From Candidatus Micrarchaeota archaeon (lineage in GTDB: Archaea; Micrarchaeota; Micrarchaeia; Norongarragalinales; SBBD01), in the NCBI GenBank assembly GCA_018819225.1, contig JAHJQN010000005.1, positions 35,286 to 99,285 of the forward strand: a DNA stretch of 64,000 nucleotides, read 5' to 3'. Below the pieces are notes generated by a model, which saw only the letters and a list, made by a program, of their open reading frames with translations, searched no databases and was not told the origin of the DNA. Within the stretch, counting starts at the first letter, position 1, and each line of letters begins with the position of its first letter. Below are positions 6,386 to 63,830 of this stretch, piece after piece. A program made the position numbers and the translations under genes.

Positions 6386-6820
6386 CTACGCTTTCTTGAG
6401 TTTAACGCGTTCGAGGATGATGGTGGGCGAGATTTTGGTGACGCCATCCATCACCGAAATTTTCTCGTTGATGAAGCGCGTCACCTCTTCTTGGTTATGC
6501 ATCCACACTTCCATTAGCACCATGTGCTCGCCCGTTGAAGTTGCCAGATACGAGATTTCATTCAAACGGGCAAGCGCCTCCACGACTTTCAAAAACTTGA
6601 GCGGTTCGATATTCAAACCAATAAACGCCACGGAATCGAAACCGATCTTGCGAGGATCTACAATGGCTTGATACTGAAGGATCACGCCTTGTTTTTCAAG
6701 GTTTCGCACGCGATTCCGAACGGTGGCTTCGCTGACATCCAATTCCTCAGCGATCTTGAGGTATCGGACGCGACCATTTGAACGCAACGCCTTGACAATG
6801 CCTTGATCGAGTTCATCCAC
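6386..6820 (-). CDS. lrp: Lrp/AsnC family transcriptional regulator (copy 1)
   Basis: N-terminal HTH (LDxxIVKAL...VSEATVRNRV) and C-terminal RAM domain; about 85% identical to the second copy at 46720-47152. Confidence 0.85.
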   Translation of the reverse strand: MDELDQGIVKALRSNGRVRYLKIAEELDVSEATVRNRVRNLEKQGVILQYQAIVDPRKIGFDSVAFIGLNIEPLKFLKVVEALARLNEISYLATSTGEHMVLMEVWMHNQEEVTRFINEKISVMDGVTKISPTIILERVKLKKA

Positions 6821-6992
6821 GAAGAATACCCAAAGCCCCTACAAATTGCGAATTCCGCAGGGTTGATACTGAATAACGAAAAAATATAAGCATTATTCTG
6901 AATTTCTTCAGAATTATTCTAATTTTCGTCCCGTTTTCCATGAAGATTTACCGGAAATCTTAAAAAAACTATAAAATAAAAAAATTAAAAAT

Positions 6993-7024
6993 ATGAAAAT
7001 GGCACTAAAAAGTGCCAATTTCAT
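6993..7024 (-). terminator. Hairpin plus oligo-T downstream of the secreted-protein gene at 7032-7643
   Basis: 13-bp inverted repeat atgaaaatggcac/gtgccaatttcat followed, in minus orientation, by a T-rich tract. Confidence 0.4.
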
Positions 7025-7031
7025 ACTAAAA

Positions 7032-7643
7032 CTAAGTCAAATCGTACCAAATGTCGTACGCGTTGTAGTTAGGGGTCTTGGCTACAACGATCTCGTAGTT
7101 GATCCGACCGAAGCTGCTAGTAATGAAGTTGCTGAGGTTCGTGCAGAACCCATAGTTCTCCGTTCCCGCACCAGTGGAATCGAAGATGATGGCCGTGCTG
7201 CGCGAGTCCGTTGTGTTTAACACGCGCATGTTCAACGCACTCCCGCACTGTCCGTCGGATGCGGAAGAATCGAAGTGATTCGCGGTCACGTAATATCCCG
7301 TGAGAGAGAAGTTGCCGTCCGTGGTGCTGTTCGTTGAGGCGTTCACGAACGGTTCCGATGGAGTGACGCCGGTCTCAAAGAAGTACAGTACTCCTGAAGA
7401 AACGGGTTTCGTGTACAACACGTTGCCTACGGCGGTATTGTTCCGGACTTGCAGAGTCAAATTTCCGTAGAAACCAACGTACTGCTCCATGCGTCCTGTA
7501 ACGGTCAAGTTGCTGGACGTTCCGTTATCAGTTGGTGCGGCTACGTTCGTGTTATCCGATTGCTGAATGGCAAATACCATGGTCGCAGCAATAGATATTA
7601 AAAACAGAAATACTACGACGAATCTCTTATTTATATTCCTCAT
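7032..7643 (-). CDS. Small secreted N-glycosylation-sequon-rich protein, paralog A of a three-member family
   Basis: Sec-type signal peptide; more than 10 N-x-S/T sequons; 60-75% identical to the ORFs at 45947-46570 and 47403-48005. Confidence 0.7.
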   Translation of the reverse strand: MRNINKRFVVVFLFLISIAATMVFAIQQSDNTNVAAPTDNGTSSNLTVTGRMEQYVGFYGNLTLQVRNNTAVGNVLYTKPVSSGVLYFFETGVTPSEPFVNASTNSTTDGNFSLTGYYVTANHFDSSASDGQCGSALNMRVLNTTDSRSTAIIFDSTGAGTENYGFCTNLSNFITSSFGRINYEIVVAKTPNYNAYDIWYDLT

Positions 7644-7699
7644 TTCCCAACAACACCCCTCGATTTATTGATTTAGATTTAGCATATTCAAAAAAAATA

Positions 7700-7712
7700 T
7701 ACGAAAATCGTA
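7700..7712. promoter_or_regulatory. Inverted-repeat motif TACGA-N3-TCGTA upstream of paralog A (candidate Lrp operator)
   Basis: tacgaaaatcgta, plus a following T-run and about 60 nt of conserved sequence shared with the site at 47333. Confidence 0.45.
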
Positions 7713-7921
7713 ATAATATAGACATATATAAATCTTTCCATTGAGTAAATTAGCTATTATAATAAGAATAAACTAAATCAAATGTGGTTATTACGTTAAA
7801 ATAGGATAAGAATTGGATGTAAAGGGGATTAATGACGCGATGGAATAAATTGAAAGCAAGGACTCAAACGATAAGCTAAAAAGTAATCAAAGGCAATAAG
7901 GAAAGGAGGTGTAAATCGTTC

Positions 7922-45780: not shown

Positions 45781-45946
45781 TTGAAAAAAGACGAAATACC
45801 GTAGCCCCTAGAGGATATTTCGTACTAAAGAATCCGAAATTTTGGCTAGTTAATGCAAATTTCAGTCACCGAAATGCTTATATATCACCTATAATCTACG
45901 ATAAACGTATCAGGATTTTGTTTATTCGAACAGAATCAGCAAAGAG

Positions 45947-46570
45947 GTGATTGAGTTGCGTCCCACCCGCATACTCGCATTAGGTTTAATAGTCGCTGGC
46001 GTCATGTCGGTAATTGTCTACGCGGCAGTCGAACAATCGGATAACACGAATGTTGCGGTGCCAACAAATAACGGAACTTCCACCAACCTATCGGTTGCCG
46101 GACGAATGCAGCAATACGTTGGCTTCTACGGAAACATGAGCTACCAGGTCCGTAATGATACGACGGTAGGCAACATTCTGTACCAGAAAACCGTTACTCA
46201 AGGAGTGCTCTATTTCTTCAAAAATGGCGCTACTCCAACGGAACCGTTCGTGAACGCCTCGACGAACAGCACCACGGATACCAATTTCTCGCTCACGGGG
46301 TATTATGTGACCGGAAACCATTTCGATACGAACGCGTCTGATGGACAATGCGCGTCCAATCTGGATCTGAAGGTATTGAATACCACAGATGGCCGAAGCA
46401 CGGCCATTCTATTTGATTCATCAACAGCTGGCACGGAGAATTACCTCTTCTGCACCAACATCAGTTCGTTCACGTCAACAAACGGATTCGGTACCATCAA
46501 CTACGAGATCGTGGTGGCCAAGACGCCAACGTATATGGCGTATGACATCTGGCACGACTTAACCACCTGA
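45947..46570 (+). CDS. Small secreted sequon-rich protein, paralog B (GTG start)
   Basis: Signal peptide; shared VEQSDNTNVA(A/V)PT(D/N)NGTS mature N-terminus and conserved core with paralogs A and C. Confidence 0.7.
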   Translation: MIELRPTRILALGLIVAGVMSVIVYAAVEQSDNTNVAVPTNNGTSTNLSVAGRMQQYVGFYGNMSYQVRNDTTVGNILYQKTVTQGVLYFFKNGATPTEPFVNASTNSTTDTNFSLTGYYVTGNHFDTNASDGQCASNLDLKVLNTTDGRSTAILFDSSTAGTENYLFCTNISSFTSTNGFGTINYEIVVAKTPTYMAYDIWHDLTT

Positions 46571-46582
46571 TGCGAAAAATAT

Positions 46583-46610
46583 GAAAATCAATACGATTTT
46601 CGTATTTTTT
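46583..46610 (+). terminator. Hairpin plus oligo-T downstream of paralog B; overlaps the TACGATTTTCGTA motif (46592-46604)
   Basis: gaaaatc-aatac-gattttc followed by gtatttttt. Confidence 0.4.
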
Positions 46611-46719: not shown

Positions 46720-47152
46720 GGATGAGCTTGACCTCAAAATTGTTCGGCGCCTGCAGGCCGATGGAAGGATTCGCTTCCTCAAGCTAGCGAAAGAGCTGGA
46801 CGTCAGTGAAGGGACCATTCGCAAGCGCGTTCAAATCCTCGAGGACAAGAAAGTCGTTATTCAATACTCCGCAATCGTGGATCCCCGCAAGATCGGTTTT
46901 GATTCCGTGGCGTTTATTGGTTTGAATATTGAACCGCTCAAGTTTCTGAAGGTCGTGGAAGCGCTCTCGCGATTGGAGGAACTCTCGTACTTGGCAACGG
47001 CAACAGGAGAGCACATGGTGCTTATGGAGGTGTGGATGCGTAACCAAGAAGAGATCACGCGCTTCATCAATGAAAAAATTTCGGTCATGGACGGCGTAAA
47101 TAAAATTTCGCCCACCATCATCCTCGAACGCGTCAAGCTTAAGCATAAATAA
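46720..47152 (+). CDS. lrp: Lrp/AsnC family transcriptional regulator (copy 2, GTG start)
   Basis: About 85% identical to copy 1; start inferred by alignment with copy 1 (VDELDLKIV versus MDELDQGIV). Confidence 0.85.
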
Positions 47153-47205: not shown

Positions 47206-47332
47206 GCTTGAACTGATAGGCGAAGCCCCCTTCAAAATCAAGAGCTTCTTCGAATACACTACAATGCATTTCACTAAGTCTAATAGCAATTATGGTATTC
47301 ATAACCAAAAGCTTTAAATATATCAATATTAT

Positions 47333-47345
47333 TACGATTTTCGTA
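47333..47345. promoter_or_regulatory. TACGATTTTCGTA inverted-repeat motif upstream of paralog C
   Basis: Same motif plus about 60 nt of flanking similarity as upstream of paralog A. Confidence 0.45.
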
Positions 47346-47402
47346 TATTTTTCTTGAATATACTAAATTAAATTCAATAAATATAGGGGTGCTTGTAAAT
47401 AA

Positions 47403-48005
47403 ATGAAAAACAATCGAGTATTTTTCGTCGCCATATTACTAATAACCGGATCATTTATGGTTTATGCGGTTCAACAGTCCGATAATACGAATGTAGCCGC
47501 ACCAACTGATAACGGAACGTCCAGCAACTTGACCGTTACAGGACGCATGGAGCAGTACGTTGGATTCTACGGCAATTTGACGATGCAAGTCCGGAACAAT
47601 ACCGCCGTAGGCAACGTGTTGTACACGAAACCCGTTTCTCAAGGCGTACTGTACTTCTTTGAGACCGGCGTCACTCCATCGGAACCGTTCGTGAACGCCT
47701 CGACGAACAGCACCACGGACGGCAACTTCTCTCTCACGGGATATTACGTGACCGCGAATCACTTCGATTCTTCCGCATCCGACGGACAGTGCGGGAGTGC
47801 GTTGAACATGCGCGTGTTAAACACAACGGACTCGCGCAGTACGGCTATTATCTATGATTCAACGGGCGCGGGAACGGAGAAGTACGGATTCTGCACGAAC
47901 CTCAGCAACTTCGCCACTACCAGCTTCGGTCGGATCAACTACCAAGTCGTTGTGGCAAAAACAGCAGGCTACAATGCATATGACATATGGTTCGATTTGA
48001 CATAG
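47403..48005 (+). CDS. Small secreted sequon-rich protein, paralog C
   Basis: About 90% identical to paralog A over the mature region. Confidence 0.7.
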   Translation: MKNNRVFFVAILLITGSFMVYAVQQSDNTNVAAPTDNGTSSNLTVTGRMEQYVGFYGNLTMQVRNNTAVGNVLYTKPVSQGVLYFFETGVTPSEPFVNASTNSTTDGNFSLTGYYVTANHFDSSASDGQCGSALNMRVLNTTDSRSTAIIYDSTGAGTEKYGFCTNLSNFATTSFGRINYQVVVAKTAGYNAYDIWFDLT

Positions 48006-48070: not shown

Positions 48071-48204
48071 AAATACTAACTATTCGTATCAATAAATACA
48101 TTACTGGTAAAATATATCTTATAATATATTAATAATATTACGAAATTCGCATAAATAAGTACGAATATAGTAAATAGTATGTAATGAATTCTGCATAAAT
48201 CGCG

Positions 48205-61224: not shown

Positions 61225-61240
61225 AAACGTTTATATAGGC
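61225..61240 (+). promoter_or_regulatory. Putative rRNA operon promoter (BRE plus TATA)
   Basis: gaaacgTTTATATAgg, about 315 nt upstream of the mature 16S 5' end. Confidence 0.4.
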
Positions 61241-62203
61241 TTTTAAGCTAAATACTTAACCTGCGCGAATTTGCGATTTGCGTAGCTGGTTGCTGTAGTC
61301 CCGGCGAATCGAAGCTCGTGCTATGACCGATTCCTTGAGCGGTCCCTTGATCTATGATAGGGCGTATTACGCTCCATTCCACTACAGCGGCCGATGGGAA
61401 TGTGAGCAATCGTTTTGAATCACGATTCACGTTCGACGGACGCGGACCTCAACGCCAAAATAAATCGTTTAGTTCTTTGCGACTCGTAATTCGCAATCAG
61501 TTAAATTCAGTACGGATTGCACACGCGCTCTTCCGAGAGGGAGAGTGGCGTGTAACACCAGTTGATCCTGCTGGAGGATATTGCTATCAGAATTCGACTA
61601 AGCCATGCAAGTCAGTGTTACCACCTGGTAACACGGCGAACGGCTCAGTAACGCGTACTTAACTTACCCTAGGCAGGCGAATAACTTCGGGAAACTGAAG
61701 GGAATACGCCGTAGGAAACAATTTCTGGAACGAAGTGTTTCTTAAAGTGCTCCGAATTGTAGGAGTTACGGCCTAGGATGGGAGTGCGTCTGATTAGGCT
61801 GTTGGTGGGGTAAAGGCCCACCAAACCGATAATCAGTAGGAGCTATGGGAGTAGAAGCTCCGAGATGGGCACTGAGACAAGGGCCCAAGCCCTACGGGGT
61901 GCAGCAGGCGCGAAATTTCCGCAATGCGCGCAAGCGTGACGGGGGAATTCTGAGTGCTTCTCTTACGAGAAGCTTTTGCTTAGCTTGAATCGCTAGGCGA
62001 ATAAGGAGTGGGTAAATCCTGTGCCAGCCGCCGCGGTAATACAGGTAGTCCAAGTGATATCCACGAATACTGAGTCTAAAGCGCTCGTAGCGGGTTCGGC
62101 AAGTTCTCTGTGAAATCTTCAAGCTCAACTTGAAGGCGTGCAGGGAATACTACCAGACTTGGGAGTGGGGGAGGCCAAGGGTACTTTAGGGGGAGGAGTA
62201 AAA

Positions 62204-62260
62204 CGACCTTTTCTTTCAAAAAGAAAAGCTCGACCAAAAGAAATCGACATGTCGTACTCA
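62204..62260 (+). repeat. 57-nt palindromic insertion inside 16S (between GGAGTAAAA and TCCTGTAATCC); a copy of the element next to tRNA-Leu
   Basis: cgaccttttctttcaaaaagaaaagctcgaccaaaagaaatcga... versus 11113-11160 (rc) acgaaccttttctttcgaaaagaaaagcttcaccaaaagaaaatga... Confidence 0.5.
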
Positions 62261-62477
62261 AAATCCTGTAATCCTTAAAGGACCTTCAGTAGCGAAGGCG
62301 CTTGGCCAAAACACGTCCGACCGTGAGGAGCGAAGGCCAGGGGAGCAAATCGGATTAGATACCCGAGTAGTCCTGGCAGTAAATGATGCAGACTAGGCAT
62401 TGCAATGGTTTCGAACTGTTGCAGGGCCGTAGGGAAGCTGATAAGTCTGCCACTTGGGGAGTACGGTCGCAAGACTT

Positions 62478-62518
<41 letters not shown>

Positions 62519-63061
62519 TGCTGCGGTTCAATTGGACTCAACGCCGGGAAACTCACCAGGAGAGACAGCAGAATGAAGCTCAGGCTAAAGACCTTAGCTG
62601 ACAAGCTGAGAGGTGTTGCATGGCCAGCGTCAGTTCGTGCCGTGAGGTGTCAAGTTAAGTCTTGCAACGAACGAGATCTTCATCCACAGTTGCCAGTTTC
62701 GCGGTAACGCGGAGCGCACTCTGTGGAAACTGCCTGCGTTAAGTAGGAGGAAGGAGAAGGCGACGCTAGGTCTGTATGGCCCGAATCTCCTGGGCCACAC
62801 GTGGCATACAATGGCGGAGACAATGGGTTCCGACGCCGAAAGGCGAAGGTAATCTCCGAAACTCCGTCTAAGTCCGGATTGGGGGCTGAAACTCGTCCCC
62901 ATGAAGCTGGAATCCCTAGTAATCGCGTGTCATCATCGCGCGGTGAATATGTCCCCGCTCCTTGCACACACCGCCCGTCAAGTCAACCAAGCGAGGCTTT
63001 AGTGAGGCTTGGTCTTCGGATCAAGTCGAGCTAGAACTTTGTAAGGTGGATTAAGTCGTAA

Positions 63062-63830
63062 GAACGTTGCGACCTCGGATCTGTGAGGATTTGAGAAAAA
63101 ATCTGCTATATGCTGGAAACCCCGAGCATCTCAGGCTACCATCGGAAACGACGCTTCGGAATGAATATCATTCTCGAAGAAATTCAGTTGGTGAAAATGT
63201 TTTGAGTGCGGGCAATCAGCAGGGAAGTCGGCGCGAAAGCGCTTGACCCCTCAGAGACTACACGCAGACTTCTATAGTGCAAGAGAACATGAAGGCATAT
63301 CTCCTTGGCGCGCTACACGATGGCTCCAATCACGGTAACACGTACCGAATCGTCCAAAAAGAAGAAGAATACGTCCGCTGGATTGCGGATGAACTTCATC
63401 AAATGGGCATTTCGGCATGGGTTTATCGGGAAGGAGCTGAACGACATTTATTCGTCGTCGAGTTCTCGAAAAGTCGGTTATCGGAAATCAAGATCAATAG
63501 TCTTGAAGAGAAAACTGAATACATTCGAGGATACTTCGATGCCGAAGGTAGCGTACCATTGAAATCGGGAGCCAGAATGTACATTTATTTCTGCCAAAAA
63601 GACCGAAAGGATCTGGAAGAAGTAAAAACATTCTTGGAAGAACTTGGAATCGTTTGTGGAAAAACCCACAATCCAACGTTCAAAGAACCTGATTATTGGA
63701 GATTCTTCATTGGATGTAAATCCTACAAAGCATTTGCATCTAAAATTGGTTCTCGCCATCCTCGAAAGAGGAAAGTACTCGAGAAGATGATATAGTCCAT
63801 GCCGCGCAGCGATGCGTGGAAGAACATGAA
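63062..63830 (+). mobile_element. 16S rRNA intron near the 3' end (after AAGTCGTAA), carrying a homing endonuclease ORF
   Basis: The 16S consensus AAGTCGTAACAAGGTAGCCGTAGGGGAACC is restored when 63062-63830 is removed. Confidence 0.8.
63277..63795 (+). CDS. LAGLIDADG-family homing endonuclease (double-motif, monomeric type)
   Basis: YLLGALHDGS (motif 1) and IRGYFDAEGS (motif 2) roughly 95 aa apart; 172 aa. Confidence 0.85.
   Translation: MQENMKAYLLGALHDGSNHGNTYRIVQKEEEYVRWIADELHQMGISAWVYREGAERHLFVVEFSKSRLSEIKINSLEEKTEYIRGYFDAEGSVPLKSGARMYIYFCQKDRKDLEEVKTFLEELGIVCGKTHNPTFKEPDYWRFFIGCKSYKAFASKIGSRHPRKRKVLEKMI

What the first reader, a model, noticed from the sequence alone, without database searches (positions are those of the whole stretch)
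7690..7720. Shared inverted-repeat motif TACGA-N3-TCGTA in front of all Lrp and paralog genes (candidate operator)
An (a)tTACGATTTTCGTAT(a)TTTTT motif occurs at 7700-7712 (reverse complement), 46592-46604 and 47333-47345. The copies at 7700 and 47333 are each about 55-70 nt upstream of paralog A and C start codons and are followed by about 60 nt of conserved promoter-like sequence (ttgaatat.ctaaat..aat.aataaat..aggggtg). The copy at 46592 lies about 125 nt upstream of lrp copy 2. Split versions of the same half-sites are upstream of paralog B (45791 ACGAAATA-N18-TATTTCGT) and of lrp copy 1 (6873/6919 ACGAAAA ... TTTTCGT around a gaataattctgaa...ttcagaataat palindrome). Palindromic AT-rich half-sites are typical Lrp/AsnC operators, so this looks like an autoregulated Lrp regulon.
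Basis: partly seen in the sequence, partly recalled or inferred. Interest (0 to 1): 0.7.

Follow-up and report, generated by a model that had tools for sequence, protein, structure and literature searches.

The report
Lrp operator palindrome in a Micrarchaeota genome
A 13-base palindrome next to two Lrp-type regulator genes and three orphan secreted-protein genes in an uncultivated DPANN archaeon is very probably the regulators' DNA-binding site: published experiments on archaeal Lrp proteins with the same DNA-contacting residues found this same sequence as the best binder, so this is a well-supported but ordinary kind of regulatory element.

Summary
TACGA-N3-TCGTA occurs exactly three times (7700, 46592, 47333) against 0.05 expected. 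The relaxed form TRCGN-WWW-NCGYA gives seven hits against 0.73 expected, and six of them lie in the two paralog/lrp loci, so every paralog and lrp gene has one. The window comes from a Candidatus Micrarchaeota MAG.

Three lines support an Lrp operator:
- TACGA[W3]TCGTA is the published SELEX optimum of the archaeal Lrp TvFL3.
- lrp2 carries F24-S34-E35-G36-T37-R39, identical to Ptr1 and one residue from TvFL3. lrp1 carries Y-S-E-A-T-R.
- In related genomes the site precedes 10 of 11 lrp-linked paralog genes and 0 of 12 unlinked ones.

At paralog promoters the site starts 11–12 bp after a conserved TATA box. It therefore overlaps the predicted transcription start, which is the geometry of LrpA-type repression.

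- The promoter lies upstream of the palindrome, not downstream.
- The "split half-sites" are not convincing. Better sites are at 45897 (parB) and 6847 (lrp1).
- The 46592 copy is also embedded in a terminator-like hairpin.

Binding and the direction of regulation are untested. This is a new member of a known kind, of moderate interest.

The parts
7700..7712 (.). Operator palindrome TACGATTTTCGTA (read on the - strand) in the parA promoter
   Evidence: Exact match. It starts 12 nt downstream of the TATA box and ends 56 nt upstream of the parA ATG.
7725..7732 (-). Predicted TATA box of parA (TTTATATA on the - strand)
   Evidence: Aligns with the family-wide conserved AAAGCTTATATAC / TTTAAATA element. 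The transcription start has not been mapped.
7032..7643 (-). parA: 203-aa orphan protein with an N-terminal TM helix and a beta-rich domain
   Evidence: ORF. No Pfam or NCBIfam hit. Family found only in Micrarchaeota.
6990..7027 (-). Terminator-like hairpin plus T-rich tail after parA
   Evidence: -20 kcal/mol, z = -7.7. Its sequence is unrelated to the palindrome.
6883..6890 (-). Predicted TATA box of lrp1 (CTTATATT on the - strand)
   Evidence: Matches the family promoter consensus GCTTATAT. Inference only.
6847..6859 (.). Candidate operator TGCGGAATTCGCA (- strand) at about +2 to +14 of the predicted lrp1 transcript
   Evidence: Fits TRCGN-WWW-NCGYA, but only 7/10 to the strict motif. It ends 26 nt upstream of the lrp1 GTG.
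6386..6820 (-). lrp1: Lrp/AsnC regulator with recognition residues Y24 S34 E35 A36 T37 R39
   Evidence: Pfam HTH_AsnC-type and AsnC_trans_reg above cut-off. Recognition residues.
45877..45884 (+). Predicted TATA box of parB (CTTATATA)
   Evidence: Same 12-nt spacing to the palindrome as at parA and parC.
45897..45909 (.). Operator variant TACGATAAACGTA in the parB promoter
   Evidence: One mismatch. It is retained although parB has diverged from parA and parC to 53% identity at four-fold sites.
45956..46570 (+). parB (204 aa from TTG 45956; the ORF opens at GTG 45947)
   Evidence: P0002. Shine-Dalgarno GAGGTGAT lies 5 nt upstream of the TTG.
46574..46610 (+). A-tract/stem/T-tract hairpin after the parB stop, containing the palindrome
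   Evidence: 16-bp stem, -14.8 kcal/mol. The shorter construct gives z = -3.5. The hairpin is kept in L004 with a compensatory change, and in L031.
46592..46604 (.). Exact palindrome between parB and lrp2: candidate lrp2 operator or roadblock, and also the right arm of the hairpin
   Evidence: An identical 13-mer sits at the same place in L031. L004 has an 8/10 variant there.
46721..47152 (+). lrp2: Lrp/AsnC regulator with recognition residues F24 S34 E35 G36 T37 R39
   Evidence: Ungapped alignment to FL11/PH1519 gives the numbering. Residues.
47313..47320 (+). Predicted TATA box of parC (TTTAAATA)
47333..47345 (.). Operator palindrome in the parC promoter, at about -10 to +3 of the predicted start
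47403..48005 (+). parC (200 aa)
   Evidence: P0001, 100% identical.
48118..48172 (.). Orphan module: TATA-like CTTATAATA, a 12-nt spacer, then TACGAAATTCGCA (48139) and TACGAATATAGTA (48160), 21 bp centre to centre, with no gene downstream

Best explanation
The 13-bp palindrome (consensus TRCGN-WWW-NCGYA, optimum TACGA-TTT-TCGTA) is the DNA operator of the two locally encoded Lrp/AsnC-family regulators, lrp1 and lrp2. [quoted passage not shown]

An Lrp dimer, possibly as part of a higher oligomer, would contact the two TACGA half-sites in the major groove and bend the A/T centre.

At the parA, parB and parC promoters the site begins 11-12 bp after the TATA box. It therefore covers about -10 to +3 of the predicted transcription start. 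A bound Lrp would let TBP and TFB bind but sterically prevent RNA polymerase recruitment, which is the mechanism shown for Pyrococcus LrpA.

Sites at or near the lrp genes (6847 in the lrp1 initially transcribed region, 46592 between parB and lrp2) would give autoregulation. The 46592 copy is also part of the parB terminator-like hairpin, so Lrp bound there could also act as a roadblock to read-through into lrp2.

Shown here: the enrichment, the conservation, the residue-to-site match, and the placement next to the TATA box. Inferred: physical binding, the transcription start positions, repression as opposed to activation, and the effector.
For: 1. **Enrichment.** 3 exact sites against 0.05 expected. 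6 sites with at most 1 mismatch against 0.32. 7 degenerate sites against 0.73. All but one lie in the two paralog/lrp loci.
2. **Published specificity.** The SELEX optimum of TvFL3 is TACGA[AAT/ATT]TCGTA, and the general form is abcdeWWWedcba (PMC2715240).
3. **Recognition residues.** Table 4 of that paper gives TvFL3 N-S-E-G-T-R -> TACGA, Ptr1 F-S-E-G-T-R -> TACGC, and TvFL3[G36A] still best at TACGA. lrp2 is F-S-E-G-T-R by ungapped alignment to FL11, and lrp1 is Y-S-E-A-T-R.
4. **Orthologs.** All 11 paralog-linked Lrp orthologs from other genomes keep (S/T)34-(E/D)35-(G/A)36-T37-R39.
5. **Comparative genomics.** The site precedes 10 of 11 lrp-linked paralog genes and 0 of 12 unlinked ones, including two further paralogs of the same genome. 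Fisher p = 1e-5; counted conservatively by clade, 5/6 against 0/7, p = 0.005.
6. **Conserved positions.**
   - L004: three sites.
   - L031: exact 13-mer.
   - L032: TACGATATTCGAA 12 nt after the TATA box and 56 nt before the ATG.
7. **Mechanism precedent.** The site lies directly downstream of a family-wide conserved TATA box. This matches LrpA, which binds at the downstream border of the TATA box and blocks RNAP recruitment (PMC2995911).
Against: - No binding, transcription-start or expression data exist.
- The natural centre is TTT/AAA. SELEX preferred AAT/ATT, although any A/T combination was tolerated for FL11.
- The lrp1 site matches the strict motif at only 7 of 10 positions, with G at position b. 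The published code does not predict G for Ala36.
- L030, which is lrp-linked, has no good site.
- In the more distant clade the element lies about 30-45 nt downstream of the predicted start and is part of a possible 5' UTR hairpin. Its role there may differ.
- The 46592 copy is equally well explained as a terminator hairpin.
- The loci counted in the association test are phylogenetically related.
Confidence: 0.75

Rival explanations
1. The palindrome is an RNA-level element: an intrinsic-terminator hairpin followed by a T-run. Its copies in front of parA and parC are carried-over terminators of whatever lay upstream when the cassette duplicated.
For: - The 46592 copy lies 22 nt after the parB stop, inside a 16-bp stem (-14.8 kcal/mol) followed by T6.
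- Every lrp-linked locus has some hairpin plus T-run at that position.
- L004 keeps the hairpin through a compensatory change (AAAAUC/GAUUUU to AAAAAC/GUUUUU) that breaks the 13-bp DNA palindrome.
- T-runs also follow the A and C copies.
Against: - At parA no co-oriented gene lies upstream, because the neighbour is divergent.
- At parA and parC the 5-bp stem is not part of the minimum-energy fold.
- Post-paralog hairpins elsewhere have unrelated sequences, for example GGCAC/GTGCC after parA, so a terminator role does not require this 13-mer.
- The motif is absent from all other gene ends in the window.
- A terminator would not explain the match to the Lrp recognition code.
- It would not explain the fixed 11-12 bp spacing from TATA boxes.
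Confidence: 0.12
2. The copies are passive remnants of recent segmental duplication or gene conversion of the paralog cassette and have no function of their own.
For: - parA and parC are recent duplicates, with 79% identity at four-fold sites.
- Their homology starts about 25 nt upstream of the motif and ends at the stop codon.
- Identical runs in the coding region (up to 137 nt) are longer than the 27-nt block around the motif.
- The orphan copies at 48139 and 48160 look like a decayed promoter.
Against: - parB has diverged to near saturation at silent sites (53%), yet keeps the TATA box, a 12-nt spacer and a 12/13 match to the site.
- Other genomes whose Lrps are 67-79% identical to lrp2, and whose paralog proteins (full-length only in L004 and L032) are about 49-57% identical, keep the site at the same positions (L004, L031, L032).
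- The 46592 copy is not flanked by sequence homologous to the paralog promoters.
Confidence: 0.05
3. The palindrome is a protein-binding operator, but for a different transcription factor encoded elsewhere in the genome and not for the adjacent Lrps.
For: Many helix-turn-helix dimers bind short A/T-centred palindromes. The window covers less than a tenth of the genome, and no binding data exist.
Against: - The site co-occurs with lrp linkage across genomes, 10/11 against 0/12.
- The half-site equals the one predicted from the Lrps' own contact residues.
- No other Lrp-family gene is present in the window.
Confidence: 0.08

Closest known systems
TvFL3 (Thermoplasma volcanium feast/famine regulatory protein) and its SELEX site TACGA[AAT/ATT]TCGTA (Yokoyama et al. 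2009, PMC2715240)
   Same: Identical half-sites (TACGA/TCGTA) and the same 5-3-5 geometry with an A/T centre. lrp2 shares five of the six base-contacting residues (S34, E35, G36, T37, R39).
   Different: Residue 24 is Phe in lrp2 and Tyr in lrp1, against Asn in TvFL3. The natural centre here is TTT/AAA, not AAT/ATT. The TvFL3 site came from in vitro selection, whereas these are natural genomic sites in a DPANN archaeon. The biological targets of TvFL3 are not given in that paper.
Ptr1 (Methanocaldococcus jannaschii Lrp homolog)
   Same: All six contact residues are identical to lrp2 (F24 S34 E35 G36 T37 R39; Table 4 of PMC2715240). The consensus half-site is TACGC, almost the same.
   Different: Position e is C in the Ptr1 consensus and A here. 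The regulons are unrelated.
LrpA of Pyrococcus furiosus (ortholog FL10): negative autoregulation by blocking RNA polymerase recruitment
   Same: It is the best PDB sequence match of lrp2 (1i1g, E = 1e-26). Its operator borders the TATA box on the downstream side and overlaps the start site. It is autoregulatory (PMC2995911).
   Different: LrpA and FL10 have Thr36/Ala37 and prefer TTCGA or GTCGA half-sites. LrpA is known only to regulate itself, whereas here the main predicted targets are neighbouring secreted-protein genes.
Ss-LrpB of Sulfolobus solfataricus
   Same: A palindromic site with an A/T-rich centre, several sites in its own control region, autoregulation, and regulation of neighbouring genes.
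   Different: A different half-site (TTGCA) and three regularly spaced boxes that wrap DNA. Here most promoters show a single strong site.
Escherichia coli Lrp control of fimbrial/surface-structure operons (own knowledge, not tested here)
   Same: An Lrp-family regulator controls genes for extracellular or surface proteins.
   Different: That system has bacterial transcription machinery, a Dam-methylation-dependent switch, a different consensus and unrelated target proteins.

Membership tests
Archaeal Lrp/FFRP operator (abcdeWWWedcba class) | 13-bp dyad: two 5-bp half-sites separated by three A/T base pairs | tested here: met
   Exact at 7700, 46592 and 47333. Variants at 45897, 48139, 48160 and 6847. 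All centres are A/T only.
Archaeal Lrp/FFRP operator (abcdeWWWedcba class) | The half-site sequence agrees with that predicted from the cognate protein's contact residues 24/34/35/36/37/39 | tested here: met
   lrp2 is F-S-E-G-T-R, the same as Ptr1 and one residue from TvFL3 (TACGA). lrp1 is Y-S-E-A-T-R, similar to TvFL3[G36A], which still prefers TACGA. The TGCG half-sites at the lrp1 site are not predicted by the code.
Archaeal Lrp/FFRP operator (abcdeWWWedcba class) | A cognate Lrp/AsnC-family protein (HTH plus RAM domain) is encoded and linked | tested here: met
   Pfam HTH_AsnC-type and AsnC_trans_reg above cut-off for both proteins. The best PDB match is LrpA. The gene linkage is conserved in 9 other loci.
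Archaeal Lrp/FFRP operator (abcdeWWWedcba class) | Sequence-specific binding of the protein to the site | not testable with these tools
   Needs EMSA, footprinting or DAP-seq with purified lrp1 and lrp2.
Archaeal Lrp/FFRP operator (abcdeWWWedcba class) | Sites clustered with helical phasing (2-3 turns centre to centre) | tested here: inconclusive
   48139 and 48160 are 21 bp apart. The two L029 sites are 40 bp apart. The paralog promoters show only one strong site each.
LrpA-type repression (RNAP exclusion) | The operator lies immediately downstream of the TATA box and overlaps the transcription start | tested here: inconclusive
   The site begins 11-12 bp after a conserved TATA-like box at parA, parB, parC, L004 and L032, and 23 bp after it at lrp1. 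Transcription starts are predicted from the geometry, not mapped.
Intrinsic terminator (hairpin + T-run) | Lies just downstream of a co-oriented gene's stop codon | tested here: not met
   True only for 46592, which is 22 nt after parB. The 7700 copy has no co-oriented upstream gene. The 47333 copy is 180 nt past lrp2.
Intrinsic terminator (hairpin + T-run) | A stable stem followed by a T-run | tested here: inconclusive
   Met for 46592 (-14.8 kcal/mol plus T6). At parA and parC the palindrome stem is not in the minimum-energy fold.
Intrinsic terminator (hairpin + T-run) | The same element recurs at many unrelated gene ends (generic terminator) | tested here: not met
   No other occurrence in the 64-kb window, nor in about 17 kb of other contigs from the same genome.

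The most novel reading that the evidence does not exclude
The paralog genes encode a Micrarchaeota-specific family of small secreted, probably N-glycosylated proteins with no recognisable fold. The duplicated Lrp pair, with diverged DNA-binding domains and near-identical oligomerisation domains, switches individual paralogs on or off through the TATA-proximal palindrome. This would be a surface-variation or host-interaction switch in a DPANN symbiont. One operator copy would act both as a DNA operator and as an RNA terminator, coupling read-through into lrp2 to Lrp occupancy.
Probability: 0.12. Interest if true: 0.65.

Novelty: new member of a known kind. Interest (0 to 1): 0.4.

Why it matters
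Regulatory circuits of DPANN archaea are essentially unstudied, because almost none are cultured. A search of the held literature for Micrarchaeota together with Lrp found nothing relevant.

In this case a regulator, its operator sequence, its target genes and a likely mechanism can all be predicted from sequence. The prediction can be tested with two purified proteins and a 13-bp oligonucleotide.

It is also a natural, independent confirmation of the residue-to-base recognition code proposed for archaeal Lrp proteins. Natural operators next to the genes match what SELEX found for proteins with the same contact residues.

The targets are a lineage-restricted family of secreted proteins of unknown fold. 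Other members of that family sit next to giant surface proteins, so the regulon may bear on how these small archaea interact with their surroundings or hosts.

Tried and rejected
1. **A/C conservation as evidence of selection.** Rejected. parA and parC are recent duplicates, and their coding regions contain longer identical runs than the block around the motif.
Four such pairs occur in the window against 1.35 expected, P(>=4) = 0.07. They fold into hairpins of -11 and -16 kcal/mol. I did not accept them as operator variants.
3. **Identifying the target protein.** All attempts failed:
   - Pfam and NCBIfam: no hit.
   - AlphaFold2 model: pLDDT 81.
   - Foldseek against PDB: best E = 0.3.
4. **Rfam scan of the window.** Found only the 16S rRNA and one tRNA, with no known RNA family at the motif.
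5. **Ptr1/Ptr2 SELEX paper (PMC140199).** Not held. The Ptr1 data were taken second-hand from PMC2715240.
6. **Frequency of the S-E-G-T-x-R signature among Lrps.** The homolog search returned only 11 close relatives, so the frequency could not be estimated. Among the four PDB homologs whose alignments were displayed (LrpA, the 7fby chain, PH0140 and FL11), none has Gly36-Thr37.
7. **Look-up of P0029.** Not on record.
8. **Covariation test of RNA hairpin against DNA palindrome.** Too few independent sequences. One compensatory change in L004 favours the hairpin at the post-parB copy only.

Full report
**Source and gene map**

The window comes from a Candidatus Micrarchaeota (DPANN archaeon) metagenome-assembled genome. 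Paralog C is 100% identical to NCBI protein KJ765_04370. The neighbouring genes are archaeal: RtcB, RpoN and ribosomal protein S9, and an archaeal 16S rRNA.

- Locus 1, minus strand: parA (7643..7032), then lrp1 (6820..6386).
- Locus 2, plus strand: parB (45956..46570), lrp2 (46721..47152), parC (47403..48005).

Both lrp products are Lrp/AsnC-family proteins, with HTH_AsnC-type and AsnC_trans_reg above the Pfam cut-offs. Their best solved relative is Pyrococcus LrpA, 1i1g.

The par proteins are about 200 aa long, with an N-terminal hydrophobic helix and a beta-rich domain. They have many conserved N-x-S/T sequons. They hit no Pfam or NCBIfam family. All 23 homologs found are from Micrarchaeota or unnamed metagenome contigs.

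**Checking the observation**

TACGA-N3-TCGTA occurs exactly at 7700, 46592 and 47333 and nowhere else. Shuffles expect 0.05.

Allowing one mismatch gives six sites against 0.32 expected. The three extra ones also lie in locus 2:
- TACGATAAACGTA at 45897, upstream of parB;
- TACGAAATTCGCA at 48139 and TACGAATATAGTA at 48160, downstream of parC.

The degenerate form TRCGN-WWW-NCGYA gives seven sites against 0.73 expected. It adds TGCGGAATTCGCA at 6847-6859 in the lrp1 leader, and one site at 61272 in the 16S rRNA leader. Every par and lrp gene in the window therefore has a site.

Such ACGAAA...TTTCGT pairs occur four times against 1.35 expected, P(>=4) = 0.07.

- parA and parC are recent duplicates, with 79% identity at four-fold sites.
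- Their homology runs from about 25 nt upstream of the motif to the stop codon.
- Their coding regions contain identical runs of up to 137 nt, against 27 nt around the motif.

**The decisive external evidence**

Yokoyama et al. 2009 (PMC2715240) determined optimal sites of four archaeal Lrp-type proteins by SELEX. All fit abcdeWWWedcba, and the optimum for Thermoplasma TvFL3 is TACGA[AAT/ATT]TCGTA. Its half-sites are the same as in the window motif.

The paper relates the bases to six contact residues, in FL11 numbering 24, 34, 35, 36, 37 and 39:

| Protein | Contact residues | Half-site |
|---|---|---|
| TvFL3 | N-S-E-G-T-R | TACGA |
| Ptr1 | F-S-E-G-T-R | TACGC |
| TvFL3[G36A] | N-S-E-A-T-R | TACGA still best, with more T at position b |
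| LysM | Y-S-E-A-A-R | TTCGA |

An ungapped HMMER alignment of lrp2 to FL11/PH1519 fixes the numbering. lrp2 is F-S-E-G-T-R, identical to Ptr1 and one residue from TvFL3. lrp1 is Y-S-E-A-T-R. The published code therefore predicts the palindrome that lies next to these genes, independently of the DNA observation. Among the four PDB homologs whose alignments were displayed, none has Gly36-Thr37, so the signature is not generic.

**Comparative genomics**

I fetched 32 loci carrying par or lrp relatives.
- The par-then-lrp gene pair recurs in L004, L009, L011/L022, L014, L015, L019/L020, L029, L030, L031 and L032.
- All of these Lrps keep (S/T)34-(E/D)35-(G/A)36-T37-R39. Position 24 varies.

Sites in the closer relatives sit at equivalent positions.

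| Locus | Site | Position |
|---|---|---|
| L004 | TACGAAAATCGGA | 11 nt after the par TATA box |
| L004 | TGCGTTTTTCGTA | just after the par stop |
| L004 | TGCGATTTTCGTA | 19 nt before the lrp ATG |
| L031 | TACGATTTTCGTA (exact) | after the par stop |
| L032 | TACGATATTCGAA | 12 nt after a TATA box, 56 nt before the par ATG |
| L029 | two sites, 40 bp apart | before lrp |

L032 is syntenic with locus 1 and has an Ala36 Lrp. One of its half-sites is TTCGA, the base that Ala36 is expected to tolerate.

A more distant clade carries TGCGG(T/A)TT(T/G)CGTA about 30-45 nt before the par start.

A site precedes 10 of 11 lrp-linked par genes. It precedes none of 12 unlinked ones, including two further paralogs of this same genome, P0003 and P0005. 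Fisher p = 1e-5; grouped conservatively by clade, 5/6 against 0/7, p = 0.005. The other degenerate hits in the loci fall inside coding regions at chance frequency.

**Anatomy and likely mechanism**

Across the par family a BRE/TATA-like element (AAAGCTTATATAC or TTTAAATA) is conserved about 90-105 nt upstream of the start codon. In the window this element lies upstream of the palindrome, with a fixed spacer of 11-12 nt, at parA, parB, parC and the orphan module, as also in L004 and L032.

Taking the usual archaeal geometry (TATA box at about -30 to -23; established knowledge, not measured here), the site spans about -10 to +3 at the par promoters. At lrp1 it spans about +2 to +14. The conserved 60 nt downstream of the A and C copies is therefore a 5' UTR ending in a Shine-Dalgarno sequence (GGGGTG), not a promoter.

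This placement matches LrpA, which binds at the downstream border of the TATA box, coexists with TBP and TFB, and blocks RNA polymerase recruitment (PMC2995911). I therefore favour repression of the par genes and negative autoregulation. Binding, start sites and the sign of regulation are all inferred.

**The 46592 copy**

This copy needs separate treatment.
- It lies 22 nt after the parB stop and forms the right arm of a 16-bp A-tract/stem/T-tract hairpin of -14.8 kcal/mol.
- All lrp-linked loci have some hairpin plus T-run at this position, with unrelated sequences. The one after parA is GGCAC/GTGCC at -20 kcal/mol.
- L004 preserves the hairpin through a compensatory change that damages the DNA dyad.
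- L031 preserves both the hairpin and the exact 13-mer.

A terminator role is therefore well supported for this copy. The exact identity with the operator suggests it also binds Lrp. In that case it would act either as a roadblock to read-through or as an operator for an lrp2 promoter, but the present data cannot separate these.

A purely terminator or RNA explanation fails for the other copies:
- No co-oriented gene lies upstream of parA.
- The short stem is not in the minimum-energy fold there.
- The motif is absent from all other gene ends.

**Comparison with known systems**

The element works like, and by sequence criteria belongs to, the archaeal Lrp/FFRP operator class. Its closest relatives are the TvFL3 and Ptr1 specificities, and its closest mechanistic analogue is LrpA.

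It differs in four ways:
- the host lineage (DPANN);
- the TTT/AAA centre;
- the targets, an orphan secreted-protein family;
- the overlap of one copy with a terminator hairpin.

A literature search for Micrarchaeota together with Lrp found nothing relevant.

**Verdict**

The operator interpretation is supported, at about 0.75 confidence, with the corrections given above. This is a new member of a known kind, of moderate interest.

Noticed in passing
window 61229-61284: TGCGATTTGCGTA (61272-61284) fits the degenerate operator pattern. It lies about 35 nt downstream of a strong TATA box (TTTATATA, 61229-61236), in the leader of the 16S rRNA gene (61555-63107). One chance hit is expected in the window, so this may be coincidence, but an Lrp site at the rRNA promoter would be interesting.
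   Followed up: partly
window 48118-48172: An orphan promoter-like module: CTTATAATA, a 12-nt spacer, then two 9/10 operator sites 21 bp (two helical turns) apart. No ORF lies downstream, and the module faces the 3' end of a convergent FBPase-like gene. It may be a relic of another par copy, an Lrp sink, or an antisense promoter.
   Followed up: partly
window 6386-6820 vs 46721-47152: lrp1 and lrp2 are mosaic. The N-terminal DNA-binding domains are 57% identical, with third codon positions at 33% (saturated). The C-terminal RAM domains are 90% identical, with third positions at 67%. This suggests gene conversion of the oligomerisation domain, or an old duplication that was homogenised recently. 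It would permit hetero-oligomers with two DNA specificities.
   Followed up: partly
[not shown]
   Followed up: partly
L009, L011, L014, L015, L019 (about 30-70 nt upstream of the par start): In the distant clade, the left half-site TGCGG always has a complementary arm CCGCA 17-20 nt upstream. L015 covaries (ACGCA...TGCGT). The element abuts a conserved leader, ACCCACCAAA..CAGAG. It is either a 5' UTR RNA hairpin or a second half-site.
   Followed up: no
window 47341-47363 and 7682-7704 (-); L004 3944-3965: A second inverted repeat overlaps the right half-site: GTATATT-N7-AATATAC at parA and parC. L004 has GGATT-N11-AATCC at the same place. It may be a stem-loop at the 5' end of the par mRNA.
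   Followed up: no
window 6865-6940 (-): A perfect 7-bp inverted repeat, TTCTGAA-GAAA-TTCAGAA, lies directly upstream of the predicted lrp1 TATA box, inside a larger -16 kcal/mol hairpin. It does not fit the 5-3-5 Lrp form and could be a site for another factor.
   Followed up: no
L030, L032, L029, L031 vs window: Synteny is conserved. Transaldolase | par | lrp matches locus 1 (L030, L032), and par-lrp...FBPase matches locus 2 (L031). In L031 a 102-aa acidic, low-complexity ORF replaces parC.
   Followed up: no
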